From a virus (taxonomy: Duplodnaviria > Caudoviricetes), in the IMG/VR virus record IMGVR_UViG_3300025575_000001, positions 34,997 to 98,996 of that record: a stretch of 64,000 nucleotides of DNA; one strand, 5' to 3'. Of the stretch, positions 9,462 through 29,962 are shown piece by piece. The translations under genes were made by a program, and so were the position numbers. Under the pieces are notes generated by a model. The model was not told where the DNA came from. It made no database searches and saw only the letters and a program-made list of their open reading frames with translations. Numbering within the stretch: position 1 is the first letter of the stretch; each line of letters opens with the position of its first letter.

Positions 9462-9492
9462 GGGTATGAGGATTAATTTCCTCATTCCCTTT
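9462..9492 (+). terminator. intrinsic terminator
   Basis: GGGTATGAGGA-ttaatt-TCCTCATTCCC stem followed by TTT. Confidence 0.6.
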
Positions 9493-9512: not shown

Positions 9513-10013
9513 ATGGAAGAACAACTTGACTTATTTGAAGAATTAAGAGATTTAAAACCTTTTACTATTTCTGAACAATATGATACTCCTGAAAAATACC
9601 TCAAATATTACTTTGCTAATAAACAACCATCTACAAGATTCTCTGGTGGTGCCCCACAATGTCATGCTGGAGTGTTTAGAAGTTTCTTTGATTTATATTA
9701 CCTTACGAGAGCTAGATTCTCAAATGTGACCTTAGAACAGGTTGCAACAATCCTAATCAATTTATGTGAGGATTATGGTAATTCAAGAGTTAGTGTATTC
9801 TACAACACAGATGTAGAAAAAGTAGTATTTGGTAACTTTGAAAACACAAACAGAAATAGTAGCCTCATCTTTGATAAGAGTTGCAGAATGTTTGATATTT
9901 ATGGAATTGATAATTTGTCTTTTTTAGACATTATATCACTTGCTGGTAAAAAATTAAGAGATTTGATTGCAATACAAACCCTTCCCACTCAACCCTGGGA
10001 ACAAACTAGATAA
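9513..10013 (+). CDS. hypothetical protein (paralog of 10015-10521)
   Basis: PEKYLKYYF...QCHAGVFRSFFDLYYLT. Confidence 0.75.
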   Translation: MEEQLDLFEELRDLKPFTISEQYDTPEKYLKYYFANKQPSTRFSGGAPQCHAGVFRSFFDLYYLTRARFSNVTLEQVATILINLCEDYGNSRVSVFYNTDVEKVVFGNFENTNRNSSLIFDKSCRMFDIYGIDNLSFLDIISLAGKKLRDLIAIQTLPTQPWEQTR

Positions 10014-10014
10014 A

Positions 10015-10521
10015 ATGGCTGAAGAAAAGAAATTATATGTGATTCCTCAAGCAATTGTGGATGATTTATCAAGAATGGTACCCTATGTAGGGGGTGAAGA
10101 ATTTACTGATCCTAGAGAATATCTATTGAATTATTTCAAATTATACTCTCCGGCTACTTATTACAATGATGGAACAATACAATGTAGTTCTGGTAGAAAT
10201 AGAAGTTTCCTCGATTTGTACTTCTTAACAAAAGCTCAATTCCCAGAAATCACTCTACAAGAGTTTGCTAAATTGTTTTTCTCATTAGACCAAGAAATTT
10301 ATGGTTCTACAAGTGAACATGAATATCATATGTTTATATATTTTTGCACAAATATTCGTAAACCCGTGATTTATACAAATAAAGCAACCTTTAGATACTA
10401 TTTTATTCAAGATAAAGATTGGTTAAAAACCTATCTTTCATATCCTTCAAACGATATATTGCTTTCCCAAATTTTTGATTTAGCTGAATTAGATTATCAT
10501 CATTTCGTAAAAAAAGATTAA
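10015..10521 (+). CDS. hypothetical protein (paralog of 9513-10013)
   Basis: ATG at 10015; PREYLLNYF...QCSSGRNRSFLDLYFLT. Confidence 0.75.
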   Translation: MAEEKKLYVIPQAIVDDLSRMVPYVGGEEFTDPREYLLNYFKLYSPATYYNDGTIQCSSGRNRSFLDLYFLTKAQFPEITLQEFAKLFFSLDQEIYGSTSEHEYHMFIYFCTNIRKPVIYTNKATFRYYFIQDKDWLKTYLSYPSNDILLSQIFDLAELDYHHFVKKD

Positions 10522-10523
10522 TT

Positions 10524-10865
10524 ATGTATATTGGAGTTTATGGAACCCTTAAAACGGGTCAAAGAGCTAATTCAATGTTAGCAACTGGAACATTTATTGG
10601 AGAATTCAGAACAGAAATCCCATTTCAAATGTATGATTTAGGATCATTTCCTGCACTTGTAAAAACTGAAGAGAATCATCCTATCACATTAGAAGTGTAT
10701 GAAGTCAATGATGAACAAACCCTTAAATCCCTTGACAGATACGAAGGATTTCCATCATTGTATCAAAAAAGTACAGTTCAAGTAAAAGAAATGGATGTAA
10801 CAATCTATACAATGAATTCAATGCGTCACGGTGGTGAACTTATGGAATCTGGTAATTGGAAATAA
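10524..10865 (+). CDS. gamma-glutamylcyclotransferase (AIG2/GGCT family)
   Basis: VYGTLKTG, LGSFPAL, EVYEV, LDRYEG..LY. Confidence 0.9.
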   Translation: MYIGVYGTLKTGQRANSMLATGTFIGEFRTEIPFQMYDLGSFPALVKTEENHPITLEVYEVNDEQTLKSLDRYEGFPSLYQKSTVQVKEMDVTIYTMNSMRHGGELMESGNWK

Positions 10866-10875
10866 ATTAATAATT

Positions 10876-11178
10876 ATGATACTAAAAGCTAAAATTAAAT
10901 GTCAAAATGGATTATTTTTTGCTATATTTTCAAATAGAATATATAATGAATATAATGCATATATATTAAATATTCCAAAAAATTTTAAAAATGAGTTTAA
11001 TAAAGAATTTGAATTTAAAGTTGTTTCTTATATTAGGCCATCTAAAGGATATTTAAATGCACATATAAAAAGATGTGAGGATATATTTAATCTTATTGGA
11101 ACGAACGGAGATACAACCCAAGAAAAAGAATTATTAAAATATGATTACATACCAAATTTAGTAGAATTAATAAATTAG
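10876..11178 (+). CDS. hypothetical AT-rich protein
   Basis: ATG at 10876, 100 aa, ends in TAG. Confidence 0.55.
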   Translation: MILKAKIKCQNGLFFAIFSNRIYNEYNAYILNIPKNFKNEFNKEFEFKVVSYIRPSKGYLNAHIKRCEDIFNLIGTNGDTTQEKELLKYDYIPNLVELIN

Positions 11179-11183
11179 AAAAA

Positions 11184-11963
11184 ATGTTTATACAAATAAG
11201 AAGTAAAAATGATACTGCTGCCTCTCTTAGAGGTCAAGTAGTTACTAGAAAAAGAACAGTCTTACGTTTAGGTAGCAGTACCCCCACAGATCAAATCTTT
11301 CCTGAAGGAGTCCGTCGTGGTAAGGAAATCATTGAAATCAACACAGTTGAAGCTTGTCATAACAGTGGTAACAAAATTACAATGAAACAAATGTTTGATG
11401 CTGTTGGAGTGGTTAGTGCTGAATGGGCGCAAATGAGTAATATTCATGGATACGAAGGTGATCCTTGGGAACATTATCCAGCTATAATTAAACACAAAAA
11501 TTCAAGTAAAGGTAATGGTATTTTTTATATTGAAAATGAACCTGCCCTTGCTGCATTTATACTAGAACACAATTACAATATTAATGACTACATCATTGAA
11601 AAATTCTACAACTATGTAAAGGAATACCGTCTCCATGTCACAAAAGATGGTTGCTTCTACACATGTCGTAAAATGCTTAGGGATGATGCTACTGAACGTT
11701 GGCATCGTCATGACTCCAATTCAGTATGGATTCTCGAAGAGAATGAACTCTTTGCTAAACCAGCAAATTGGGATGAAATAGTTGCAGAATGCGTAAAAGC
11801 TATGACTTCAGTTGGATTGGACATTAGTGCAATTGATATCAAAGTAAGCAATCACAATCCTGCGAGATTTATCATCCTTGAGACAAATAGTGCCCCTGCC
11901 TTGGCAGAAATCACTACCGTTAAATACATTGACAAATTAAAAGCAATAGTAGATGAATTTTGA
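11184..11963 (+). CDS. ATP-grasp ligase (RimK/YheC-like, phiEco32-type)
   Basis: NKITMKQMF, PAIIKH..SKGNGI, KEYRLHV, GLDISAIDI, ILETNSAP. Confidence 0.88.
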   Translation: MFIQIRSKNDTAASLRGQVVTRKRTVLRLGSSTPTDQIFPEGVRRGKEIIEINTVEACHNSGNKITMKQMFDAVGVVSAEWAQMSNIHGYEGDPWEHYPAIIKHKNSSKGNGIFYIENEPALAAFILEHNYNINDYIIEKFYNYVKEYRLHVTKDGCFYTCRKMLRDDATERWHRHDSNSVWILEENELFAKPANWDEIVAECVKAMTSVGLDISAIDIKVSNHNPARFIILETNSAPALAEITTVKYIDKLKAIVDEF

Positions 11964-12720
11964 TGACAAAATAGTAATATACCAATATTATAATTATGTT
12001 AGTTACAAATACAGATTTTTATCTGATAAAGAATTTACAATCATTCCAAGAGCAGCTTGTTTTAGTAAGTTGACATATAATGACTCATATGACCCTAAAG
12101 TAGGTGTTGAAGTGTTAATAGATGCATTTACTGTTCCAAATATGAATGGTTATTGTGCTTTAACAGAAGAAGAACTACTTGCTTGGTTAGCTGAGATTAA
12201 ACAATGGATTGATTATGAGTACACATTAATTAAGGAATCAGATCAATTTGTTATTCAATTAACTACTCATGTTCCTACAGGAGCTTTAAAGATACTTCTA
12301 ACATTAATTAGATTTGCTTTTGAAGCCCCTTTTAGTCTTGCTCTCAAAGAAGCATTTACTGTTGCTAAAAAGGATTATTTCCCTAATACATTAATTCTTC
12401 ATAGGTATCAAACTATTCAAAATAGTATTGACTATCCTACCAATACAAATCATTGTTTTTGTACTTATCAACAAATACCTCTTTTAACTATTGATAAATT
12501 AAAAGAAAAAGTTAAAAACTATACAGGTTATGTAAATACCTTTTTTGGTGGAAAAGGCAATTATAATGGTACATTTGTTGATGAACAAATGAATCTCTTT
12601 ATACGACAAAAATTAGTAAATGTTCAATCTGAATTAAGTATGAAAGATGAAGACATTGCTAATAGAGTAAATAACTTATACATTCCCAATTTTAAAGTAA
12701 CTTATGGACAAACAGATTAA
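11953..12720 (+). CDS. hypothetical protein within the ligase cluster
   Basis: 255 aa ORF overlapping both neighbours. Confidence 0.75.
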   Translation: MNFDDKIVIYQYYNYVSYKYRFLSDKEFTIIPRAACFSKLTYNDSYDPKVGVEVLIDAFTVPNMNGYCALTEEELLAWLAEIKQWIDYEYTLIKESDQFVIQLTTHVPTGALKILLTLIRFAFEAPFSLALKEAFTVAKKDYFPNTLILHRYQTIQNSIDYPTNTNHCFCTYQQIPLLTIDKLKEKVKNYTGYVNTFFGGKGNYNGTFVDEQMNLFIRQKLVNVQSELSMKDEDIANRVNNLYIPNFKVTYGQTD

Positions 12721-14327
12721 AATATATGTAGTGGGTTCATCTAGTGGTTATGCTAGATTTATTCAAAATTCTACACTTGTGAAAGACATGGATCAAGCTG
12801 ATGTGATTCTTTTTACCGGAGGTGAAGATGTAGATCCTCATCTCTATGGAGAAAAAACTCATAAATACACATATTGTACTCCTCAACGAGATGCTTATGA
12901 AATATATGAATATGAACAATCATTGTGTTTTCCTAATACACTTCGCGTTGGAGTTTGTCGTGGGTTAATTTGATGGCCCACGTTAAACAAGGTGAATTGC
13001 TGGAACGCTGTAATGCCAATCAGCAGCTAAGCTATTTAGAAATAAATAGAAAGTTCAACGACTAGAAGTAAGACTAAGTTTGGAAGTAAATTCTCCAAAT
13101 ATGTCGGTAATACTTCCAAGAGCGCCTTGGTTTTTATAAAAATTTATTAATTTTAAAGAATTATTACAAAAAGTTTCAAGTTGATCTAAAGAAGCACAAT
13201 TTTTCATTGCATTTGCCATTCTAGATACAACAATAATATTACCTTTAATATACCCCTTATTATTATCAATTCTATCTATAGAAGCGTGTGATGGATCTTG
13301 TCCGCCACTTTCGTGCATATATGTGAGTTTGATTCCCAAATAAGGGCAATATTCTGGAATTTCTAAATCTTGATAGGTTAGATTAAATTCTAATCCTCTT
13401 CTTTTTGACATAAATTTTGTATTTCTAATCATGTATCCTCTTATTCGGTCATGTTGATTTAAATACACCCTTTCTGGCATTTTTGGAAGTAATCCTAAAA
13501 GATTTCGTATTTCTGATAATCTTTGTTCGTACATATTCTTCTTTTTAAATAAAGGATGTTCTTGCAACCAAAGCACTATCTCAGAATTTTTGGTACTATT
13601 GTTATAAATTTCAGTAAATTCTTCTTTAAAATTAGGATAATTTAATATTTGTTTAATTGTAGAAGCAGAAGGAATATTTAAACCTCTTTTTAATGAGGAT
13701 ATCTAATCATTATTTACATGATACTCTCTTGCTAATTCTACAACTAATTCTCCTTGCATTAATCTTTTAATAATTTCTTGTTCATTCATAATTTTTAATT
13801 TTATGTAAAGATACAATAAATTATTGGAATATGCAACAGGTTAAACAAATTACTAATTATTCATAAATAAATTGCTTATAAAAATATGATATAGTCTGAA
13901 CTATAGGGAATAATAACCTATAGAATCTAAGGATAAAGAGCCTTAGAGATAACATAATGCTCAATTACTAACTGTCTTAAATGGTGGTAAACTTGTGCAA
14001 GATGTCACTAATCATGTTGGTAGAAGTCATCAAGTATTAACCACAGATGGTCAAATACTTGAATGTACATCTACTCATCACCAAATGGCTTATCCATACA
14101 ACATACCTAAAAAGGACTATGAGATACTTGCTCATACATTTCCAAAATTGTCTAAACACTACGAAGGTAGTGGAATCAATTGGGAAGATCAATTTCAAGA
14201 AGTAGAAGTAATCTATTTCCCAAAAACAAACTCTCTAGGAGTTCAAGGACATCCAGAAATGATGGAGTTAAATTCTCCATTTGTTAACTATATCAATGAA
14301 TTAATAATCACTAAATTAAATAAATAA
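12704..14327 (+). CDS. class I glutamine amidotransferase / peptidase C26-like, spliced: join(12704..12965,13960..14327), 209 aa
   Basis: Exon 1 has FTGGEDVDP..RD..E..GVCRG. Splicing restores GVCRG-SQLLTVLNGGKL. Exon 2 has STHHQ and GVQGHPE, completing the Cys-His-Glu triad. Confidence 0.9.
13055..13789 (-). CDS. intron-encoded HNH-like homing endonuclease, antisense to its intron, 244 aa when TAG is read as Gln
   Basis: ATG at 13789 in A-rich context, one in-frame TAG at 13703-13705 (codon 29), TGA at 13055. Motifs CPYLG, ASIDRIDNNKGYIKGN, ANAMKN. Confidence 0.85.
13806..13837 (-). promoter_or_regulatory. putative Bacteroidota sigma-70-type promoter for the antisense endonuclease
   Basis: The minus strand reads GTTG-N20-TATCTTTA, close to the consensus TTTG-N19/21-TAnnTTTG, 16 nt upstream of the ATG. 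Confidence 0.6.
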
Positions 14328-15199
14328 TGGCATATACTCTTATAGAACATGTTACTATTGGCACAGATCCTGAATTATTTATTGTAAATACAAAGACTGG
14401 TTTAGTTGTATCTTCAATTGGTCTTATTCCAGGACATAAAAATGATGCCTTCTTACCTGAAGGATTTCAAAAAGGTTTTGGTTTACAGACTGACAATGTA
14501 TTGGCTGAATTTAATGTTCCACCAATTCATTTAACTTCAGGAGCAAGTAAAGTATTCAGTACACAAATTACTCAAATGAAAGAGTATATCAAGGATTTTG
14601 TAAAAAAAGTCAATCCTGATTATGACATTCTGTGTAGTGCTTCTGAATTAGTTCCAGATGACCAATTACAAAGTGATGAGGCTAAACAATTTGGATGTGA
14701 CCCCGATTACAATGTATACACTCTGAGTCAAAACGAAACTCCTGAAGGGGTTAAAACTAACTTGAGGAGTACTGGTGTTCACATACATGTGGGATACCAT
14801 GAAAACAATCTAACAACCTCTTTAGCTCTGTTAAAAGTTTTAGATTTATATCTTGGAGTACCTTCAGTTTTGATTGATCCTGATACAAGGAGACGTTCTC
14901 TCTATGGTAAAGCTGGTTGTTTTCGTCTTACTGACTATGGTGTTGAATATAGAGTATTATCTGGTTACTTCATCAAAGATGAAATCACTACTACTTGGGT
15001 TCTTCATCAAACTGCAGCAGCAATTGATTATTACAACAAGTGTCTTCGAGAGTATTCCAGTAATTTCCATACAGAACCATTTGCTATTGATAATTACTTA
15101 CCATCTGAAGAAACTGTATTCAATAGTATCAACAATGGTAATGTTGCATCAGCAAGAAGAATTGTAAAAAAATATCAAATTGCTCTCATAAGAGAATAA
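14327..15199 (+). CDS. phiEco32-like COOH-NH2 ligase (type 2)
   Basis: GTDPELF, DNVLAEFN, FGCDPDYN, LRSTGVHIHVGY, RRSLYGKAGCFR, YGVEYRVLS. Confidence 0.92.
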   Translation: MAYTLIEHVTIGTDPELFIVNTKTGLVVSSIGLIPGHKNDAFLPEGFQKGFGLQTDNVLAEFNVPPIHLTSGASKVFSTQITQMKEYIKDFVKKVNPDYDILCSASELVPDDQLQSDEAKQFGCDPDYNVYTLSQNETPEGVKTNLRSTGVHIHVGYHENNLTTSLALLKVLDLYLGVPSVLIDPDTRRRSLYGKAGCFRLTDYGVEYRVLSGYFIKDEITTTWVLHQTAAAIDYYNKCLREYSSNFHTEPFAIDNYLPSEETVFNSINNGNVASARRIVKKYQIALIRE

Positions 15200-15252
15200 C
15201 AGAGAATTTAAAATTATTCTTTGAATTTTTTAATTAAACACAGATAAAATAA

Positions 15253-16785
15253 ATGTTAAATATAATTTTAAGTTTTTTACTTGCTCATACAATTCTCTTC
15301 CTATTCCTCAAACCCAAATTAACCAATCTATTTTGTGGACTATTTGGCTATGTAGGAATTGCAAGAAAATTTGATAAAAAGACCTTTTACACACTTGGTT
15401 GCATTAATGACACCAGAGGAGGAGACTCCTGTGGTGTATTTATTGATGGAGAAGTAGAATATGGGGTTGATAAAGAGAAACTGTTTACCAATTTCTATGA
15501 GACTAGTATATTATTAGAAAATACTAAGGTAGCTAAAATAGCCATAGGCCATTGCAGAAAAGCATCTGTTGGTGCAGTAGGAGTTACTACAGCTCAACCA
15601 GTTGTAATTAAAAACAAAGAAACTAAGGAAACTGAGTTTGTTTTGATTCACAATGGCACTCTTTTAAATCATAAAGCTCTAGCAAACAAGTATTTAAAGG
15701 ATACTCCTGATACATTCACAGATAGTCAAATTATGGCTTATATCATTTATTTCAAAGGATTTGAAGTATTGACTGAATATGAAGGAGCTGGTGCATTTGT
15801 AATGATAGACTATAGAAAGAATAGAGAGAATCCTGATGTCTATATGTTTAAAGGAGAATCTCTTCAATTTCATTACTCTAAGGAAACCTGTGAAGAAAGG
15901 CCTTTATATTTTTCTATTGAAGATAGAGGTATTTGGTTTTCTTCAATTGCTCAATTCTTAGATACTACAAGATATGGTGAAGGAGATGTTCGTAATGTAA
16001 AATGTAATCATTTGTATCATATCAAAAGTGGTGTAATCAAATCTCGTACATTTATGGACAGAAGTAAAAGACATCAGTCTGGATCTACTGTTTATAACTA
16101 CAATAGTTACAGTAGTTATGAAAGACCTACTCCAATGCTTCCTATTAGACCAAGTAATCCCCCTGCAAATTATACTGCAGGAGCTAATTCTTCTATATTT
16201 GTTTGTGATGTTTTTACAAAACCTACATTTAATATATCAGGTAAGTTAATATTTGTTGATGGTTTCTATTATATTGATGGTAAAAAAGCACATGGTAAAC
16301 ATGAATTGAATGAATATGGTTATACTCCAACTACATATAGAGCTAATATTAAAGATTTTTGGTTCTTTGATGGAGTATTATTGTATAATGAAACCTGTTT
16401 TGACATAGTATGTGGATTACAGGACAAATTTCAATTTGAAGATATCACTGGCTATGTAGACAGTTTTCCAGAAACAGTTTATTGTTACAGTCCTCAAGTA
16501 TACTTTGACACAAATGATAAGAAATTTGTTAAATGGGAAAAGAATTTGAGTTCACAATTCACTGGTAAAATGGGTATTATTTTAGATCAAGATGATACTG
16601 AATACAATTTTACTAATGGTGTTTTGAAAACAAAGACTACTTATACATATTGTGTAAATAAAAGACAAATAATTGTATTTGAAGAGAAAGCAAAAGAATT
16701 TAAAACTCTTGACAAAGATGATGAAATCCTCAGAATGTGTCTCTTACTAAATTGGTTTGATAATGAAAATAAAGATAATAATTAA
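15253..16785 (+). CDS. class II (Ntn) glutamine amidotransferase with a hydrophobic N-terminal leader
   Basis: CGLFG, RGGDSCG, GHCRKAS, AQP, HNGTL, TDS. Confidence 0.9.
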   Translation: MLNIILSFLLAHTILFLFLKPKLTNLFCGLFGYVGIARKFDKKTFYTLGCINDTRGGDSCGVFIDGEVEYGVDKEKLFTNFYETSILLENTKVAKIAIGHCRKASVGAVGVTTAQPVVIKNKETKETEFVLIHNGTLLNHKALANKYLKDTPDTFTDSQIMAYIIYFKGFEVLTEYEGAGAFVMIDYRKNRENPDVYMFKGESLQFHYSKETCEERPLYFSIEDRGIWFSSIAQFLDTTRYGEGDVRNVKCNHLYHIKSGVIKSRTFMDRSKRHQSGSTVYNYNSYSSYERPTPMLPIRPSNPPANYTAGANSSIFVCDVFTKPTFNISGKLIFVDGFYYIDGKKAHGKHELNEYGYTPTTYRANIKDFWFFDGVLLYNETCFDIVCGLQDKFQFEDITGYVDSFPETVYCYSPQVYFDTNDKKFVKWEKNLSSQFTGKMGIILDQDDTEYNFTNGVLKTKTTYTYCVNKRQIIVFEEKAKEFKTLDKDDEILRMCLLLNWFDNENKDNN

Positions 16786-16787
16786 AC

Positions 16788-18116
16788 ATGGCTAACGAAC
16801 AAACAGTTTTTGATCACGAATTTCAACGTGAAGTAGTCATTGGATCTCCTGAAGCTAGAGGATTAATTCAAGGTATAATTGGTGTAAGAGGAAGAGTCCA
16901 TGATTTAGGATACTTCACAGTCAATCTTACTAAAAACATCACAGTCCAATTTAGAGGAGGTACTTATAATGCCCTCTCTAAAGACATTTTTGTTGAGAAA
17001 TTCTTAGTATTTGACAACAATACAGGTAAATATAGCTACAATGCTGGACAAGACAATATTGTTCAAATTAAAGCATTTGCTACTCATAAAGGTAATGGTC
17101 AATTCCCTTATCACAATATCCGTAGAGAATACAATGCTGAGAATAATTTACAAAAATTTGGTGCTTTGGCTAAACCGTCTCATATAATTAAATCCAATAA
17201 TAAGGCTCTTATACCCTTTACATTTGGTTTAGAATATGAAACCTCTTGTGGTTACATTCCAGAAGAAGAATGCTTTAGAACAGGTCTAATTCCTCTTAGA
17301 GATGGTTCTATCACAGGTATTGAATATGCTTCTGTTGTTTTAGATTCTTCTAAAGGAGGATTTGAACTATTAGAAGAACAATTGGAATTATTAAGAAAAT
17401 ATACTGAATATGATAAGGAGTGTTCCCTCCATATCCATTTTGGTAATTTTCCAGTAAGTCAAAAAGCTATTGGTGTTTTATATATGCTGGCTGAATCACT
17501 TCAGGCTTGCATGTACCATACAGGACTGCTTCCAAAATATACATTTGATACTAAGGCCTACAAAGCAAGTGGTAAAGATTATTGTAAGCTTTTACCTGCT
17601 TATAATAGTTTTGAAGGAATCTACAATTTCCTTAGTGGGGGAACACCATTTTTAGGAAGTTTAACTATTCCTCATCCTGGAGATCAACGTCATGAAGCTA
17701 AGTGGAATGTGCATTCTCGTTACTATCAGATTAATCTTATCAACATGTGTTTCTATAACTCTCCTAAGACTGTAGAAATGAGGTTCTTAAGACCTTCTTA
17801 CAATTTTAACAAAATTGTTAATTGGATATTCATCTTTTCAGCTATGTTGCAGTATGCAATTGATTTTGCTAAAAAGAATAAAGGAATGTCTGATGATACA
17901 ATTTATAGAACATTTCATAAAATGTTTCCAGGAGAGCCTAATGATTTCCAAAAAATATTCACAAGTGTATATTCCCCAGAGATTACACAAGAATTGAATA
18001 CATTTATGGACAATCTTAGAATCATTGTTAGAAAACAAGGTCAATTAAATGATGGAATTGGTAAATTAGATACATTTGATGATCCAATTATCACTACAAA
18101 CTGTCTACAACGATAA
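16788..18116 (+). CDS. putative amidoligase (COOH-NH2 ligase fold)
   Basis: TFGLEYET, RDGSITGIEYAS, CSLHIHFG, RYYQIN, KTVEMRF. Confidence 0.85.
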   Translation: MANEQTVFDHEFQREVVIGSPEARGLIQGIIGVRGRVHDLGYFTVNLTKNITVQFRGGTYNALSKDIFVEKFLVFDNNTGKYSYNAGQDNIVQIKAFATHKGNGQFPYHNIRREYNAENNLQKFGALAKPSHIIKSNNKALIPFTFGLEYETSCGYIPEEECFRTGLIPLRDGSITGIEYASVVLDSSKGGFELLEEQLELLRKYTEYDKECSLHIHFGNFPVSQKAIGVLYMLAESLQACMYHTGLLPKYTFDTKAYKASGKDYCKLLPAYNSFEGIYNFLSGGTPFLGSLTIPHPGDQRHEAKWNVHSRYYQINLINMCFYNSPKTVEMRFLRPSYNFNKIVNWIFIFSAMLQYAIDFAKKNKGMSDDTIYRTFHKMFPGEPNDFQKIFTSVYSPEITQELNTFMDNLRIIVRKQGQLNDGIGKLDTFDDPIITTNCLQR

Positions 18117-23700: not shown

Positions 23701-24431
23701 TAGACTTACAAGCATTAGTTCAACAATATACCACTCACTCCATTAGTTCTACGATTAATCTCCCCAAAGGTACAAAAGTAGAAGAAGTAGATCAATTATA
23801 CCGATATGCCAATGAAAAGAATTTAAAAGGTATTACAGTCTATGTTGATGAATCAAGGGAAGGAATATTAGTTACTAATAACCCAAATAAAGGCTTATGG
23901 AAGGCCACAGAGGGACGTAGAGCACCTGAGAGACCTAAAGTATTATCAGCTAAATTAACCCCCGTTAAATCAAAGGGAATTAACTATGCAGTAATTGTAG
24001 GATTCTTAGAAGGTAAACCATATGAAGTATTTGCATATGAATTAGATACTGAAGAAAAGGCTTGTGAAGGTCATGTGATTAAAATAAAAAGAGGAGTTTA
24101 CAATTTCGTATCTCCCACTTATACAGTATCAAATCTTCAATTAGCTGCAGAAAAGGTAGAAGAAAAGGCTTGTACACTATACACATCAATGCTTCTTAGA
24201 GAAGGTGCTGAAATTAATCACATCATCAAAACAGCTAAAAAGGTTAATGAAAACATTAGTTCCTTTAGTTCAGCAATGTGTAGAGTATTAGCCAAATATG
24301 CTCCAAAAGAATACAGTAGAGATCTTTGTCCCAAATGTGGACAACCACTCAAGCATGAAAACGGTTGTATCAAGTGTGATTCTTGTACTTACAGTGCGTG
24401 CTTCTTAATGTATAAACATAAAACAATTTAA
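20793..24431 (+). CDS. nrdJ: class II (B12-dependent) ribonucleotide reductase, spliced: join(20793..22489,23417..24431), 903 aa
   Basis: SLSNCFV, RRGGVG, TNPCGEI, CRL. Splicing restores TVAPTGTV-SLLTQTTSGIEP. C-terminal TSCPD-like domain and CPKCG..GC..CDSC zinc ribbon. No small-subunit gene is adjacent. Confidence 0.9.
22604..22611 (+). promoter_or_regulatory. putative Bacteroidota -7 promoter element for the intron endonuclease
   Basis: TACCTTTG is an exact TAnnTTTG match, 28 nt upstream of ATG 22640. Confidence 0.6.
22640..23266 (+). CDS. intron-encoded HNH-like homing endonuclease, 208 aa when TAG is read as Gln
   Basis: CSCGK..CCKEC, CALSG, ASLDRIDSSKDY, NVQWVHKDVNRMK. The TAG at 23213 interrupts the C-terminal helix DQDYFI*MCAKI. 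A second TAG is at 23258 and TAA at 23264. Confidence 0.85.
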
Positions 24432-24433
24432 AA

Positions 24434-24988
24434 ATGATAGGATCAATAATAGTCATCGTAATTCTTATAGGCGTATATGGTAAATTCATGGCTAATCATA
24501 TTACTAAGGTAATGAAAGAAGAATTTCAGTATCATCTTGGTTTAGTCAAGAAAGATACTAACTTATTTCAAGATACCATATCTTTTAAAACCAGTTATTT
24601 AAAAGGAGATTCACAACTTCCTGTTTTACAACTTAAAGTAGAGGGCAGACTCTGTAATCTACTTTTAGACACAGGGGCTAATCTCAACATTTTAAATGAA
24701 TCTGTTTTTAATGAAATCAATATTAACAATAAAATAGAAGTAATCAAATGTAAGGATAACATCATTTTTGGTGGTGGATCTGAAGAACAAATAGGAACAG
24801 CTAAATTAAAATTCTCATATCAAAGAGTCAAATTTAATGATGATTTTGATATTATTGATGTCAGTAAAGCCTTCAATGAATTTCATGAAAAAACTGGAGT
24901 TCTTATCGATGGTATTTTAGGAAATCAATTCTTTAAAACAAATCAATGGAGTCTCGACTTCGATAAAATGGTAGTATGGGTGAAATAA
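24434..24988 (+). CDS. membrane-anchored retropepsin-like aspartic protease
   Basis: N-terminal TM segment, LLLDTGAN, IDGILG. Confidence 0.85.
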   Translation: MIGSIIVIVILIGVYGKFMANHITKVMKEEFQYHLGLVKKDTNLFQDTISFKTSYLKGDSQLPVLQLKVEGRLCNLLLDTGANLNILNESVFNEININNKIEVIKCKDNIIFGGGSEEQIGTAKLKFSYQRVKFNDDFDIIDVSKAFNEFHEKTGVLIDGILGNQFFKTNQWSLDFDKMVVWVK

Positions 24989-27444: not shown

Positions 27445-27447
27445 CAA

Positions 27448-27921
27448 ATGCAAACACAATTAGTAATTCTAGTTGGCCCTCCAGGAACAGGAAAAAGTCA
27501 TTATGCCTATAAAACTGCTAAAAAGAATCCCTTAAAATGGATTGTAATTAGTCGTGATGGTATTAGACGTTCTCTTGGAGACAAAAAATCACATCTAATA
27601 TTTAAACAAGACAAGGAAGAAATCCTATCGTCTATTGAATTTGATGCAATTGTAACATCTCTTTCCTCTGGGTTTTCTGTAATTGCTGATATATCTAACA
27701 ATGGTTATAAAGGACAATTTGATGGTATCCCAGACATCATTTGTCCTTATCAAGTATCTATTCAGATTAAGTATTTCAAATGCTCAATCTGGTTAGCTAC
27801 CTTGAGAGATCTGTGGAGAAGAATTAAAGGAGGTCATATGGTTGGTTATCAAAGAATTAAACGACTACACAATCAATTTTACATTCCTAAAGATTATAGA
27901 AACGACTATGGAAATAATTAA
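27448..27921 (+). CDS. P-loop kinase (AAA_33, polynucleotide kinase-like)
   Basis: GPPGTGKS, ISRDGIR, VIADISN. Confidence 0.75.
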   Translation: MQTQLVILVGPPGTGKSHYAYKTAKKNPLKWIVISRDGIRRSLGDKKSHLIFKQDKEEILSSIEFDAIVTSLSSGFSVIADISNNGYKGQFDGIPDIICPYQVSIQIKYFKCSIWLATLRDLWRRIKGGHMVGYQRIKRLHNQFYIPKDYRNDYGNN

Positions 27922-28090
27922 AGATTCAGTAATCAGTATTCACATTTCTGGTGATAAAGAAATTAACACATTTCAATCTATTGTTGAAAAAACATTTTCA
28001 CAAAATAGAATGATGGGGTTTAATCGAAACAAACTCACAACAGAAGAGAGTGATTTTTTAGAACAAATATACCAAAATATTAGAAAATGA
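27908..28090 (+). CDS. small hypothetical protein
   Basis: ATG at 27908; coupled to its neighbours. Confidence 0.5.
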   Translation: MEIIKDSVISIHISGDKEINTFQSIVEKTFSQNRMMGFNRNKLTTEESDFLEQIYQNIRK

Positions 28091-29031
28091 AATTAATAAA
28101 ACCTTCTGTTGAAGTAATCAAACAAATAGAGAATCATGATATTTATAAACACATAGCAACTTGTTATGCCTTTATACACAATATCAAAGTCCCTGAGACA
28201 TTAAAGGAATGCAGAAAAATTGTAGATACTTTAGAAATAAACAATGATGTAAACATGCTTTGTCATAGTGCTGTATATTTGACTCTACCCCTTACTGAAT
28301 TCTATGTTGATAAATACAGTGACGAAAATAAGTGTGATGCATATGAAGATCTTCTTGCTAAGAAACTACATGTAACAACTACTTATGATTACATCTTTGA
28401 GAATAACTATTTTAATGATTTACAATACCTTAATTCTCAACCAGTTATACATGAAAAGATGATTACCGTCAAATTTGTTTTAGACAAATTGGGTAGACAA
28501 TCTCTTCAACAACTTGGAGATGCATTTTCAATCACTCATGGAAATAGTTTTAACTTCAACTATGGTAAGAAAAGAAATAATACTCAAATCTCATTTCTTA
28601 TACCCTCTTATCTGAATTTAGAACCAGGATGTTATATGCCTACTAAATTAGAGGATAAAACTGTTTTTAGACATACTGCTACAGGTAATGTACACAAATT
28701 GATTACAGACAATCTAGGAGTAAGCCCTGAGATGTTTAAAACATTTAGTTGTGATGAACAATTAGACCATACAAAATACATTAAAGAAGCAAATGTAATC
28801 CATTCATTTTTGACAAGGCGTTTTGAGAATGAACAAGAAGTCTACAAACTCATTGATAATAAGCAATTTACACCTAAATCATATAGGAATATAATGACTT
28901 ATTTTGGTGAGGAACATGCACTTGTTACAGCATCTCATTATGCTTGGACAACATTTATGAATAAAAGAATGGATCTACTTATTGGACCAAATACTAAAAA
29001 ATTATTTACAGAAATACAGCATCAATTATGA
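28087..29031 (+). CDS. degenerate ThyX-like protein
   Basis: MKLIKPSVE, IYKHI, HSAVYL, HEKMITVKF and NYGK resemble Bacteroidota-phage ThyX, but the RHRxxS..ESxRY motif is absent. Confidence 0.6.
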   Translation: MKLIKPSVEVIKQIENHDIYKHIATCYAFIHNIKVPETLKECRKIVDTLEINNDVNMLCHSAVYLTLPLTEFYVDKYSDENKCDAYEDLLAKKLHVTTTYDYIFENNYFNDLQYLNSQPVIHEKMITVKFVLDKLGRQSLQQLGDAFSITHGNSFNFNYGKKRNNTQISFLIPSYLNLEPGCYMPTKLEDKTVFRHTATGNVHKLITDNLGVSPEMFKTFSCDEQLDHTKYIKEANVIHSFLTRRFENEQEVYKLIDNKQFTPKSYRNIMTYFGEEHALVTASHYAWTTFMNKRMDLLIGPNTKKLFTEIQHQL

Positions 29032-29204
29032 ATATAAACTTTTTTAATGAAAAAAATCTACTTAAAACTAAAAATACAAAAAGAGAAGTAGTTCCTATGA
29101 GAGGAGATTTAATCTCCTTTGTTAGAGATGTATATTATGTTGTTGTTTCAATTGAATATCATTATGAAAATGAAATCATAATCATTAGATTAGACAAAGT
29201 ATGA
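29028..29204 (+). CDS. small hypothetical protein (58 aa, below the track cutoff)
   Basis: ATGA overlaps at both ends; contains VVPMRGDLI. Confidence 0.6.
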   Translation: MNINFFNEKNLLKTKNTKREVVPMRGDLISFVRDVYYVVVSIEYHYENEIIIIRLDKV

Positions 29205-29962
29205 AAATATTAATTATAGGAGATGTGCATGGAGAAGATATAATTTGGAATTTAGCTGATTTAAATCTTCTTCAAGCATTCCCATATTTGGACACAGATT
29301 TTGACTATTATATCTTCTTAGGAGACTATGTTGATTCCCATGTAATACATGCACCAAAAATAATTGAGAATCTTGAAAAGATTATTCAATTAAAAAGGAA
29401 TTATCCTGACAAAGTAATTACTCTTATGGGAAATCATGATTTGTCTTATATGTTTGGTCATGATAAATTCCCATGTTCAGGACAAAATGTTCAATATGGT
29501 AGTTTTATCTCTAAACTTTTAACAGACAATAAGGACATATTTCAACCTCTTTTCTATATTGATAATCTACTATTTTCTCATGCTGGAATTTCAAATAGAT
29601 GGTTAAAGGAATTTAATCAACAATTTGGTATTACAGATGGTAAATTACATCCTAATGCAATCTCAGAATCTTATTACAAAGCTGTTTCAGAAAAACCAAT
29701 GGACATATATTCTGCCATTTTTGATGTAGGTATGTTAAGAGGAGGAGATAGTCTCGTAGGAGGTCCATTTTGGGCTGATTTTAAAGAAACTGTAATAGAT
29801 ATAGTACCTGATTGGCATCAAGTAGTAGGACATACACCTGTAAAAAAGATCCAAACTGTTCAATATTGCAAAGACGATATTGACATGGGATCAATCACAT
29901 ATATAAACACTATCCCAGCTACAACGAAGGTTAGTGAAATCGCTTATGCTTTGGAAGTATAA
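29201..29962 (+). CDS. calcineurin-like metallophosphoesterase
   Basis: GDVHG, GDYVD, GNHD, SHAG, GHT. Confidence 0.92.
   Translation: MKILIIGDVHGEDIIWNLADLNLLQAFPYLDTDFDYYIFLGDYVDSHVIHAPKIIENLEKIIQLKRNYPDKVITLMGNHDLSYMFGHDKFPCSGQNVQYGSFISKLLTDNKDIFQPLFYIDNLLFSHAGISNRWLKEFNQQFGITDGKLHPNAISESYYKAVSEKPMDIYSAIFDVGMLRGGDSLVGGPFWADFKETVIDIVPDWHQVVGHTPVKKIQTVQYCKDDIDMGSITYINTIPATTKVSEIAYALEV

What the first reader, a model, noticed from the sequence alone, without database searches (positions are those of the whole stretch)
9513..18116. Complete phage peptide/amide-ligation cluster of unknown substrate
Seen: after a terminator, one tightly packed run encodes two paralogous unknowns, GGCT, an unknown, ATP-grasp ligase, an unknown, class I GATase, COOH-NH2 ligase, class II GATase and amidoligase. 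That is three ATP-dependent ligases, two ammonia donors or hydrolases, and one gamma-glutamyl remover. Established: a similar module was predicted computationally in phiEco32-like phages, with no product known to me. Inference: it is a write/erase system for glutamyl or amide modification of the host envelope, proteins or nucleic acids. A speculative link is that Glu-to-Gln amidation chemistry co-occurs here with TAG=Gln recoding.
Basis: partly seen in the sequence, partly recalled or inferred. Interest (0 to 1): 0.8.

Follow-up and report, generated by a model that had tools for sequence, protein, structure and literature searches.

The report
Known phage amide-ligase cassette, crAss version
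This gut (crAss-like) phage carries the well-known but never biochemically solved "phiEco32-type" cassette of amide-bond ligases, glutamine amidotransferases and a gamma-glutamyl cyclotransferase. The cassette is intact and strongly co-conserved, and it has nothing to do with the phage's stop-codon recoding.

Summary

Corrections:
- The class I GATase gene is split by a 994-nt group I intron (12966-13959).
- The ORF between GGACT and the ATP-grasp is unique to this phage.
- The "terminator" is only a weak hairpin.

This is the crAss-phage version of the phiEco32/LUZ24/RIO-1 "amidoligase / putative peptidoglycan-modification cassette" (Pfam PF14395 is named after it). Its product has never been determined.

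In 66 related loci with full flanks:
- COOH-NH2 ligase, class II GATase and amidoligase co-occur in 66/66.
- Class I GATase is in 62, a new Cys-bearing 255-aa family in 54, the ATP-grasp in 52 and GGACT in only 21.
- Adjacency suggests two GATase-ligase pairs.

The recoding link is refuted. The ligase occurs in 316 GenBank phages, mostly cultured coliphages and Pseudomonas phages, and in the standard-code crAss phage cr108_1. All cassette genes here are code-neutral.

The substrate stays unknown. I rank a peptidoglycan precursor first (about 0.3), then gamma-glutamyl-amine metabolism. This scan has already reported the same cassette on other DNA (98 notes, at least 83 genomes), with the same verdict. 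It is a new member of a known kind, of modest interest.

The parts
9466..9485 (.). Weak hairpin in the 65-nt gap after the primase-associated small ORF.
   Evidence: It has a 7-bp stem, and the count of such sites in the region is not above the shuffled controls.
9513..10013 (+). Accessory unknown protein, paralog A (166 aa). The family shares a QC...RNRSF.DLY motif.
   Evidence: The family is in 8 of 66 full loci and always lies next to GGACT.
10015..10521 (+). Accessory unknown protein, paralog B (168 aa from ATG 10015; the ORF listing starts it at TTG 9967).
   Evidence: It is 31% identical to paralog A (E 1e-16). P0005 is the 168-aa form. The close relative L007 has only one copy.
10524..10865 (+). 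Gamma-glutamylamine cyclotransferase-like protein (GGACT/AIG2), 113 aa.
   Evidence: PF06094 at 1e-20 and phrog_2520 at 2e-26. The best solved relatives are mammalian GGACT and E. coli YtfP, with the YGTLK and LDxxE motifs aligned.
10876..11178 (+). Window-specific ORF (100 aa from ATG 10876, or 115 aa from GTG 10831). It ends in TAG and is probably not part of the cassette.
   Evidence: It has no family hit, no homolog in 88 loci, and L007 has no room for it. Stop codon.
11184..11963 (+). RimK-like ATP-grasp ligase, short form (259 aa).
   Evidence: phrog_2599 at 4e-32, NCBIfam MptN/RimK/Ddl, and solved structure 7qyr (RimK-type alpha-L-glutamate ligase) with the D...E-x-N metal motif aligned.
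11953..12720 (+). Conserved unknown 255-aa protein ("u255" family). C36 and R120 are invariant; F37, E124 and H167 are nearly invariant.
   Evidence: 48 representatives, alignment A1, AF2 pLDDT 88. There is no solid solved-structure match. It is always next to the class I GATase (54/54). BFVD hits fall on uncharacterised proteins of cassette-bearing phages.
12704..12965 (+). Class I GATase (Peptidase_C26-like), exon 1. It ends one base into the codon after the nucleophile motif GVCRG.
12966..13959 (+). Group I intron (994 nt), inserted right after the catalytic-Cys motif.
   Evidence: Rfam Intron_gpI gives 40.9 bits, E 1.5e-8, below the gathering score of 50. P1 pairs GUGGGU with GCCCAC, giving a U.G at the 5' splice site, and G13959 sits before exon 2. 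Intronless alleles exist in cr108_1, L007 and L009. The last 75 nt are 81% identical to the 3' end of an intron-like insert in the DNA polymerase I gene of cr116_1.
13055..13816 (-). Antisense HNH-type endonuclease ORF inside the intron. It is 253 aa only if the TAG at codon 38 is read as a residue; a 173-aa form from GTG 13576 is open under the standard code.
   Evidence: phrog_3322 at 1.9e-26 and HNH PHROGs.
13960..14327 (+). Class I GATase, exon 2. It contains the His-Pro-Glu of the catalytic triad (GVQGHPE).
   Evidence: The spliced 209-aa product aligns end to end, with no gap at the junction, to intronless homologs (43-73% identity). The L007 homolog matches solved C26-type protein 3fij across both motifs.
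14327..15199 (+). phiEco32-type COOH-NH2 ligase type 2 (GCS2/GS-like carboxylate-amine ligase), 290 aa.
   Evidence: PF14395 at 55 bits and phrog_3815 at 1e-62. All 35 invariant residues of the 8-member alignment are kept, including D14/E16, E61, H152/H154 and R200/E207/R209.
15253..16785 (+). Class II (Ntn) glutamine amidotransferase, 510 aa. It has a 27-aa hydrophobic leader, then Cys28 and the GATase domain, then a C-terminal domain of about 250 aa of unknown fold.
   Evidence: GATase_6/7. Cys28 aligns to Cys1 of mature B. subtilis PurF, with the RG, HNG and D motifs kept. The leader is found only in this lineage. The C-domain model has pLDDT 77, best Z 2.4, and no invariant polar residue.
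16788..18116 (+). GS-like amidoligase (Amidoligase_2 type), 442 aa.
   Evidence: phrog_2443 at 2.5e-13. Pfam gives 19.5 bits against a cut-off of 22. It aligns with LUZ24 gp18 and EK010 ORF37, with invariant E149/E151, D172, E179, H215/H217 and E330/R332. It is next to the class II GATase in 66/66 loci.

Best explanation
This is the crAss-phage version of the phiEco32/LUZ24/RIO-1-type amidoligase cassette, called in the literature the "putative peptidoglycan modification cassette".

Shown here:
- It is a co-directional block written in code-neutral form, lying among the replication genes.
- All enzymes keep their catalytic motifs.
- Gene adjacency groups the block into [u255, class I GATase, COOH-NH2 ligase], [class II GATase, GS-like amidoligase], and an optional arm [ATP-grasp, GGACT, +/- u166 paralogs].

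Inferred:
- In the infected cell's cytoplasm, the two GS/GCS-fold ligases and the ATP-grasp each activate a carboxylate with ATP and form an amide bond on one small acceptor.
- Each GATase is paired with a ligase. It either supplies glutamine-derived ammonia (as GatD does for MurT) or hydrolyses a gamma-glutamyl amide (as PuuD does for PuuA, or EgtC for EgtA).
- GGACT, where present, releases a free amine from a gamma-glutamyl-amine.

The acceptor is unknown. My first choice, at about 0.3, is the carboxylates or amines of the peptidoglycan stem-peptide precursor, as proposed by Iyer et al. 2009 and Hardies et al. 2013. The cassette is unrelated to TAG recoding.
For: - Family assignments and motifs.
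- Same cassette in LUZ24 gp14-22, EK010 ORF33-45, LAh_8 and cr108_1.
- Co-occurrence in 66 full loci, all on one strand: COOH-NH2 ligase 66, class II GATase 66, amidoligase 66, class I GATase 62, u255 54, ATP-grasp 52, GGACT 21.
- Adjacency: amidoligase-GATase II 66/66, u255-GATase I 54/54, GATase I-COOH-NH2 ligase 56/62.
- The class II GATase C-domain has no conserved polar residues and no known synthase fold, so its acceptor site probably lies in another protein.
- The closest solved relatives are gamma-glutamyl-type enzymes: C26-type 3fij, RimK 7qyr and GGACT.
- Literature naming and the peptidoglycan hypothesis: PMC11945000, PMC5498523, PMC10580990.
- Recoding excluded.
Against: - No enzyme here belongs to a family with proven peptidoglycan activity (Mur ligase, GatD-type GATase_3, AsnB).
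- No product has ever been measured for any copy of the cassette.
- A strictly lytic phage gains little from superinfection exclusion.
- GGACT and the ATP-grasp are dispensable in many loci, so a fixed "three linkages" scheme cannot hold everywhere.
- No class I GATase was detected by sequence in LUZ24, EK010 or LAh_8.
- The u255 family has no assigned chemistry.
- The co-occurrence set is biased toward relatives of this phage's ligase, because it is the best 80 of at least 447 hits.
Confidence: 0.7

Rival explanations
1. Gamma-glutamyl-amine (for example polyamine) metabolism. The GS-like amidoligase and/or GCS2-like ligase gamma-glutamylate a host amine such as putrescine or spermidine. The C26-type GATase I, the Ntn GATase II and GGACT take the gamma-glutamyl group off again. 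The phage thereby controls free polyamine or amine pools during replication and packaging.
For: - The nearest characterised relatives are gamma-glutamyl-amine enzymes: Peptidase_C26 is the best Pfam family.
- GGACT, not GGCT, is the closest solved relative.
- GS-like ligase plus C26 hydrolase mirrors PuuA/PuuD, and GCS2-like ligase plus stand-alone Ntn GATase mirrors EgtA/EgtC (established pathway knowledge).
- LUZ24 gp9 bound host gamma-glutamylpolyamine synthetase PauA2 in an unconfirmed two-hybrid screen (PMC4635203).
Against: - A ligase plus hydrolase with no intervening processing enzyme is futile on its face.
- No oxidase, dehydrogenase or transporter is linked to the cassette.
- Specificity cannot be read from these distant similarities (E 1e-3 to 1e-10).
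- No solved relatives of either ligase were found.
Confidence: 0.15
2. Host or phage protein modification. The RimK-like ATP-grasp and the other ligases add glutamate or other amino acids to a protein, such as a ribosomal or transcription protein or one of the unknown cassette proteins, as a host-takeover step.
For: - The ATP-grasp's closest relatives are RimK-type alpha-L-glutamate ligases that modify ribosomal protein S6.
- Small conserved Cys-bearing proteins (u255, u166) are encoded alongside and could be targets or carriers.
Against: - The ATP-grasp is missing from 14 of 66 full loci, while the other ligases are invariant.
- GGACT-type enzymes act on free gamma-glutamyl-amines, not on proteins (established knowledge).
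- u255 and u166 have no acidic C-terminal tail or repeat typical of such substrates.
Confidence: 0.1
3. DNA or nucleotide hypermodification. The ligases decorate a modified base in phage DNA with an amino acid or amide.
For: - The cassette sits among replication genes in three unrelated phage groups, next to primase or primase-helicase.
- Amidoligase and amidotransferase genes are reported next to thymidine-hypermodification genes in some viral contigs (PMC8989533).
Against: - The complete 98,996-bp genome has no ThyA-like hydroxymethylase, no ThyX and no Tet/JBP hit (the Tet/JBP control was uninformative).
- The only P-loop kinase found (27445-27921, AAA_33) lies near a metallophosphoesterase, a pairing more typical of RNA repair.
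- Earlier follow-ups in this scan on other copies also argued against DNA.
Confidence: 0.05
4. Functional link to TAG=Gln recoding, for example amidation of a mischarged suppressor tRNA.
For: Only the co-occurrence in this one genome.
Against: - The ligase is in 316 GenBank phages, overwhelmingly standard-code cultured phages.
- The full cassette is in standard-code crAss phage cr108_1.
- None of the GATases is of the GatA/GatB/GatD/GatE type.
- The cassette genes avoid TAG altogether.
Confidence: 0.01

Closest known systems
phiEco32 / LUZ24 / PaP3 / tf / RIO-1 / CW02 "amidoligase" or "peptidoglycan modification" cassette (Iyer et al. 2009, Mol Biosyst 5:1636, cited from memory and via PMC10580990; Hardies et al. 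2013 via PMC5498523; Pfam PF14395)
   Same: It has the COOH-NH2 ligase type 2, GS-like amidoligase, class II GATase, RimK-like ATP-grasp and GGCT/GGACT, all co-directional among early and replication genes next to a primase.
   Different: - The gene order differs: here it is GGACT, ATP-grasp, u255, GATase I, ligase, GATase II, amidoligase; in LUZ24 and EK010 it is ligase, x, amidoligase, GATase II, ATP-grasp, GGCT.
- A recognisable Peptidase_C26-type class I GATase is present here but was not detected by sequence in LUZ24, EK010 or LAh_8.
- The proteins of about 300 aa upstream of the ligase in those phages match u255 only at the level of predicted structure.
Cassette of crAss-like phage cr108_1 (MT774385.1, Steigviridae), annotated in GenBank
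   Same: It occupies the same position (primase ... cassette ... UDG) and the same order from the ATP-grasp onward. Protein identity is 34-58%.
   Different: - cr108_1 has two u255 paralogs, an intronless GATase I, and no GGACT or u166 genes.
- Its class II GATase starts directly at Met-Cys.
- Its late genes use the standard code.
Heteromeric glutamine-dependent amidating enzymes of peptidoglycan: MurT/GatD (PMC3267633) and AsnB/LtsA-type mDAP amidotransferases
   Same: A GATase is paired with an ATP-dependent ligase that amidates a stem-peptide carboxylate. This is the logic proposed here for the two GATase-ligase pairs.
   Different: The folds are different. MurT is a Mur ligase and GatD a CobQ-type GATase, whereas here the ligases are GS/GCS-fold and the GATases are C26-type and Ntn-type. 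Membership is not claimed.
Gamma-glutamyl "handle" pathways: PuuA/PuuD (putrescine), EgtA/EgtC (ergothioneine), BtrJ/BtrG (butirosin)
   Same: They use the same fold pairings: GS-like ligase with C26 hydrolase, GCS-type ligase with stand-alone Ntn GATase, and ATP-grasp with gamma-glutamyl cyclotransferase.
   Different: Those pathways include enzymes that transform the gamma-glutamylated intermediate. None is recognisable here unless u255 or the GATase II C-domain does that job.

Membership tests
phiEco32-type phage amidoligase cassette | COOH-NH2 ligase type 2 (PF14395) above the curated cut-off | tested here: met
   55 bits against a cut-off of 25; phrog_3815 at 1e-62.
phiEco32-type phage amidoligase cassette | Second, GS-like amidoligase (Amidoligase_2) next to a class II GATase | tested here: met
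   phrog_2443 at 2.5e-13. An iterated profile joins it to LUZ24 gp18 and EK010 ORF37, with invariant acidic, His and Arg residues. It is adjacent to the class II GATase in 66/66 loci. Caveat: the Pfam score of 19.5 is under the cut-off of 22.
phiEco32-type phage amidoligase cassette | RimK-like ATP-grasp and GGCT/AIG2-like protein in the same co-directional block | tested here: met
phiEco32-type phage amidoligase cassette | Co-conservation of the genes across unrelated phages | tested here: met
   66 full loci; 316 GenBank records for the ligase.
phiEco32-type phage amidoligase cassette | Modifies peptidoglycan (the function the name implies) | not testable with these tools
   No biochemical data exist for any copy; the papers only quote the prediction.
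Class I glutamine amidotransferase / Peptidase_C26 | Cys-His-Glu triad in the canonical motifs | tested here: met
   GVCRG and GHPE are in the spliced product and align to 3fij through the L007 homolog.
Class II (Ntn) glutamine amidotransferase | Nucleophile Cys at the mature N-terminus, plus the Arg-Gly, Asn-Gly and Asp motifs | tested here: inconclusive
   The motifs are present and Cys28 aligns with Cys1 of PurF. However, a 27-aa leader precedes the Cys in this lineage and its removal cannot be shown here.
Group I intron (in the class I GATase gene) | Conserved catalytic core scored by the Rfam model | tested here: inconclusive
   40.9 bits, E 1.5e-8, below the gathering score of 50. The model is stretched because the antisense ORF splits the core.
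Group I intron (in the class I GATase gene) | U at the 5' splice site paired in P1, G before the 3' splice site, and an exact in-frame restoration of the host gene matched by intronless alleles | tested here: met
Group I intron (in the class I GATase gene) | Spliced RNA observed | not testable with these tools
Thymidine hypermodification cluster (5-hmdU route) | dUMP hydroxymethylase (ThyA-like) or Tet/JBP enzyme in the genome | tested here: not met
   The complete genome gives no PF00303, PF02511 or PF12851 hit. The PF12851 control rang nowhere, so that part is weak.
Carboxylate-amine ligase (GS/GCS/PafA) fold, for the u255 protein | Structural match and the acidic/His/Arg ATP-Mg site | tested here: inconclusive
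   Only weak long alignments were found: Dop Z 4.3 over 145 residues, PafA Z 4.0 over 145, gamma-GCS Z 3.2 over 162. There is no profile similarity to either cassette ligase. The conserved residues are C36, R120, E124 and H167, not an ExE/HxH/ExR set.

The most novel reading that the evidence does not exclude
The cassette is not a cell-wall modifier. It is a phage pathway for gamma-glutamyl-amine (for example polyamine) conjugation and release. Within it, the u255 family (confident model, no known fold, invariant Cys) acts as a new kind of partner or acceptor subunit for the C26-type GATase, to which it is adjacent in 54/54 loci.
Probability: 0.15. Interest if true: 0.65.

Novelty: new member of a known kind. 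Interest (0 to 1): 0.3.

Why it matters
The cassette is one of the most widespread phage enzyme blocks without a known product. It occurs in at least 447 IMG/VR contigs and 316 GenBank phages, including therapy candidates against Pseudomonas and E. coli, and now in crAss-like gut phages.

Knowing the product would show how lytic phages rewire host envelope or amine chemistry. This copy adds three things:
- a sharper parts list (an invariant three-enzyme set, two GATase-ligase pairs and a new conserved Cys protein);
- evidence that GGACT and the ATP-grasp are optional;
- a clean rejection of the recoding idea.

It does not make the open question more testable than cultured carriers such as LUZ24 or phiEco32-like phages already do.

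Tried and rejected
- ESM Atlas look-ups for u255 and paralog B gave nothing usable.
- Word-indexed homolog searches returned only 2-4 close relatives each.
- Sequence searches of solved structures with either ligase, singly or as profiles, found no real relative.
- hhalign of the u255 family against both ligase families gave no similarity.
- Pfam on u255-family members and on LUZ24, EK010 and LAh_8 neighbour proteins gave nothing.
- Fold searches for the GATase II C-domain reached a best Z of only 2.4.
- Foldseek against solved structures for u255 gave nothing at E <= 0.001.
- Iyer et al. 2009 is not held in the library, so its content is quoted second-hand or from memory.
- The scan of 185,579 prokaryote genomes found only 5 loci, mostly MAG contigs, with one narrow pattern. 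This is suggestive of phage restriction but not proof.
- The 277-nt insert in L011 is not a recognisable Rfam family.
- I considered and dropped the idea that P0002 is a Rosetta-stone fusion of u255 and GATase I. It removes the first 68 residues of the GATase fold and comes from a single contig, so a deletion is as likely.

Full report
**Setting.** The window is the right-hand 64 kb of a complete 98,996-bp virus genome with terminal repeats.
- Its plus-strand half (1-30,000) is a crAss-type replication block: SF2 helicase, DnaB-like helicase, Sak4-like ATPase, primase, UDG, exonuclease, split class II RNR and DNA polymerase.
- The minus-strand half (30,348-64,000) holds very large late genes that are open only if TAG is read as a residue, with 2-53 in-frame TAGs per gene.
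- Reading TAG as a residue raises long-ORF coverage from 31.9 kb to 60.6 kb. Recoding is therefore real, but it is confined to late genes.

**The observation.** Between the primase-associated small ORF and UDG lies one co-directional run, 9513-18116, open under the standard code.
- The two leading unknowns are true paralogs (31% identity, E 1e-16). The second begins at ATG 10015 and is 168 aa.
- All conserved genes stop with TAA or TGA. Only the window-specific small ORF 10876-11178 ends in TAG.
- The "terminator" is a modest 7-bp hairpin that does not stand out from shuffles.

**A split gene.** The class I GATase appears as two ORFs (12704-12973 and 13995-14327) separated by about 1 kb.
- Rfam places a group I intron at the 5' junction (40.9 bits, E 1.5e-8, under the gathering score because the core is interrupted).
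- P1 (GUGGGU pairing with GCCCAC) puts the 5' splice site after U12965, and G13959 precedes exon 2.
- Joining 12965 to 13960 gives GVCRG-S-QLLTVLNGG, the canonical nucleophile motif, and a 209-aa protein.
- That protein aligns without a gap at the junction to intronless homologs in cr108_1 (43%), L007 (73%) and L009.
- The intron carries an antisense HNH-type endonuclease ORF with one in-frame TAG at codon 38.
- Its last 75 nt resemble the end of an insert in the DNA polymerase I gene of cr116_1.
- Other notes of this scan cover the intron itself. Here it matters only because it shows the GATase gene is intact once spliced.

**Are the enzymes alive?**
- GATase I keeps Cys (GVCRG) and His-Pro-Glu.
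- In GATase II, Cys28 aligns with Cys1 of mature B. subtilis PurF, and the Arg-Gly, His-Asn-Gly and Asp positions are kept.
- A 27-aa hydrophobic leader precedes Cys28 in this lineage only; L008, L010 and LUZ24 gp19 start at Met-Cys.
- The COOH-NH2 ligase keeps all 35 invariant positions of an 8-phage alignment.
- The amidoligase keeps the E-x-E, D, H-x-H and E-x-R positions shared with LUZ24 gp18 and EK010 ORF37.
- The ATP-grasp aligns with RimK (7qyr) through the D...E-x-N metal site.
- GGACT aligns with mammalian gamma-glutamylamine cyclotransferase through YGTLK and the catalytic-Glu motif.

**What it is.** tblastn with the ligase finds 316 GenBank phage records: Pseudomonas 121, Escherichia 94, Vibrio 20, Aeromonas 11 and others.
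- LUZ24 (gp14-gp22), the phiEco32-like EK010 (ORF33-45), Aeromonas LAh_8 and the crAss-like cr108_1 carry the same set of enzymes next to their primase genes.
- The literature calls it a seven-gene "peptidoglycan modification cassette". It is hypothesised, never shown, to build three unusual peptide linkages and to block superinfection or prepare lysis (PMC5498523; PMC11945000; PMC10580990).
- This scan has already met it 98 times in at least 83 genomes, with the same verdict.

**Co-conservation.** A profile scan of IMG/VR gave at least 447 contigs. I analysed the best 80 together with the loci fetched earlier (GenBank and a first IMG/VR scan), using iterated HMMs on six-frame translations. 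The table gives presence in the 66 loci with at least 8 kb on both sides; every hit lies on one strand.

| Component | Loci (of 66) |
|---|---|
| COOH-NH2 ligase | 66 |
| Class II GATase | 66 |
| Amidoligase | 66 |
| Class I GATase | 62 |
| u255 family | 54 |
| ATP-grasp | 52 |
| GGACT | 21 |
| u166 family | 8 |
| Small ORF 10876-11178 | 1 (this window) |

Adjacency:

| Pair | Adjacent in |
|---|---|
| Amidoligase - GATase II | 66/66 |
| u255 - GATase I | 54/54 |
| GATase I - COOH-NH2 ligase | 56/62 |
| GGACT - u166 | 8/8 |

- The minimal unit is about 4.6 kb: u255, GATase I, ligase, GATase II, amidoligase.
- The sample is biased toward relatives of this ligase.
- In LUZ24, EK010 and LAh_8 I could not detect a class I GATase by sequence.

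**The unknowns.** u255 has 48 representatives at 50% clustering.
- It has invariant C36 and R120, and near-invariant F37, E124 and H167. Its AF2 model is confident (pLDDT 88).
- Foldseek finds nothing among solved structures.
- The exhaustive aligner gives only weak matches (best Z 4.5). The long ones are repeatedly carboxylate-amine ligases: Dop, PafA, GshF, plant GCL, E. coli gamma-GCS and GS III (Z 3.1-4.3 over 145-168 residues).
- Profile comparison with the two cassette ligases is blank, and the usual acidic/His/Arg ATP site is absent. I therefore treat the fold hint as a lead only.
- In BFVD the model hits both cr108_1 paralogs (E 2e-10 and 2e-9). More weakly, it hits uncharacterised proteins of cassette-bearing phages GAP52, LAh_6, PaP4, CVT22 and CW02. 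The family is thus probably a general cassette component.
- The GATase II C-domain (model pLDDT 77) has no fold match (best Z 2.4) and no invariant polar residue. It is undetectable in 20 of 66 loci.
- It is therefore not a conserved synthase domain. This GATase either serves the adjacent amidoligase or acts as a hydrolase.

**Mechanism.**
- Shown: three ATP-dependent ligase folds, two GATase folds and one cyclotransferase, all intact, arranged as two GATase-ligase pairs plus an optional arm, and translatable under either reading of TAG.
- Inferred: successive amide-bond formation on one small acceptor in the cytoplasm.
- The GATases would act as ammonia donors (on the GatD/MurT or CarA/CarB precedent) or as gamma-glutamyl amidohydrolases (on the PuuD or EgtC precedent).
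- I rank the acceptor candidates as peptidoglycan precursor (about 0.3), gamma-glutamyl-amine or polyamine (about 0.15), protein (about 0.1) and DNA (about 0.05).
- The polyamine reading rests on which characterised enzymes are closest (C26, GGACT, GS-like) and on an unconfirmed LUZ24 gp9-PauA2 interaction.
- The DNA reading loses support because the complete genome lacks ThyA-like, ThyX and Tet/JBP hits.

**Recoding.** The proposed link fails on distribution, on enzyme type (no GatCAB or GatDE relatives) and on the cassette's own codon usage.

**Verdict.** This is a correct and careful observation of a real, intact and strongly co-conserved cassette. The cassette is already known, and its function is no clearer from this copy than from cultured phages. 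It is a new member of a known kind, with interest 0.3.

Noticed in passing
window 12966-13959 and 13055-13816 (-): The group I intron in the GATase I gene carries its HNH endonuclease ORF on the opposite strand. The full 253-aa form, with an N-terminal HTH, needs the TAG at codon 38 read through. The nuclease part is open under the standard code from GTG 13576.
   Followed up: partly
window 15253-15333: The class II GATase has a 27-aa hydrophobic leader before the nucleophile Cys. It is shared only with the close relative L007; L008, L010 and LUZ24 gp19 start at Met-Cys. The leader must be removed for Ntn activity.
   Followed up: partly
L011:10423-10701: In another crAss-like contig the COOH-NH2 ligase gene is interrupted by about 277 nt with a frame change. 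There is no Rfam match. It could be a small intron or a frameshifted copy.
   Followed up: partly
protein P0002 (Logan SRR23086397 contig, 25 kb): A relative encodes one 339-aa protein joining u255 residues 1-191 to GATase I residues 69-209, followed directly by the ligase gene. The same contig has three u166 paralogs. It is either a functional fusion or an in-frame deletion.
   Followed up: partly
window 24422-24988: An ORF between the RNR and the DNA polymerase matches retropepsin-like aspartyl protease domains (Asp_protease_2, E 3e-5), which is unusual for a phage replication block.
   Followed up: no
window 27445-29962: An AAA_33 P-loop kinase, an unknown 325-aa ORF and a calcineurin-like phosphoesterase lie in a row, possibly an RNA-repair set. 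The last two carry one in-frame TAG each although they are on the early strand.
   Followed up: no
L002 (cr116_1) 1873-2846: The DNA polymerase I gene of cr116_1 is split by an endonuclease-bearing insert. Its last 75 nt are 81% identical to the 3' end of the GATase intron here, suggesting one mobile intron family moving between genes of crAss-like phages.
   Followed up: no
Genome-contig scan (L090-L094): The COOH-NH2 ligase type 2 turned up in only 5 loci among 185,579 prokaryote species genomes, mostly short MAG contigs. The family looks essentially phage-restricted, although only one narrow search pattern was used.
   Followed up: no
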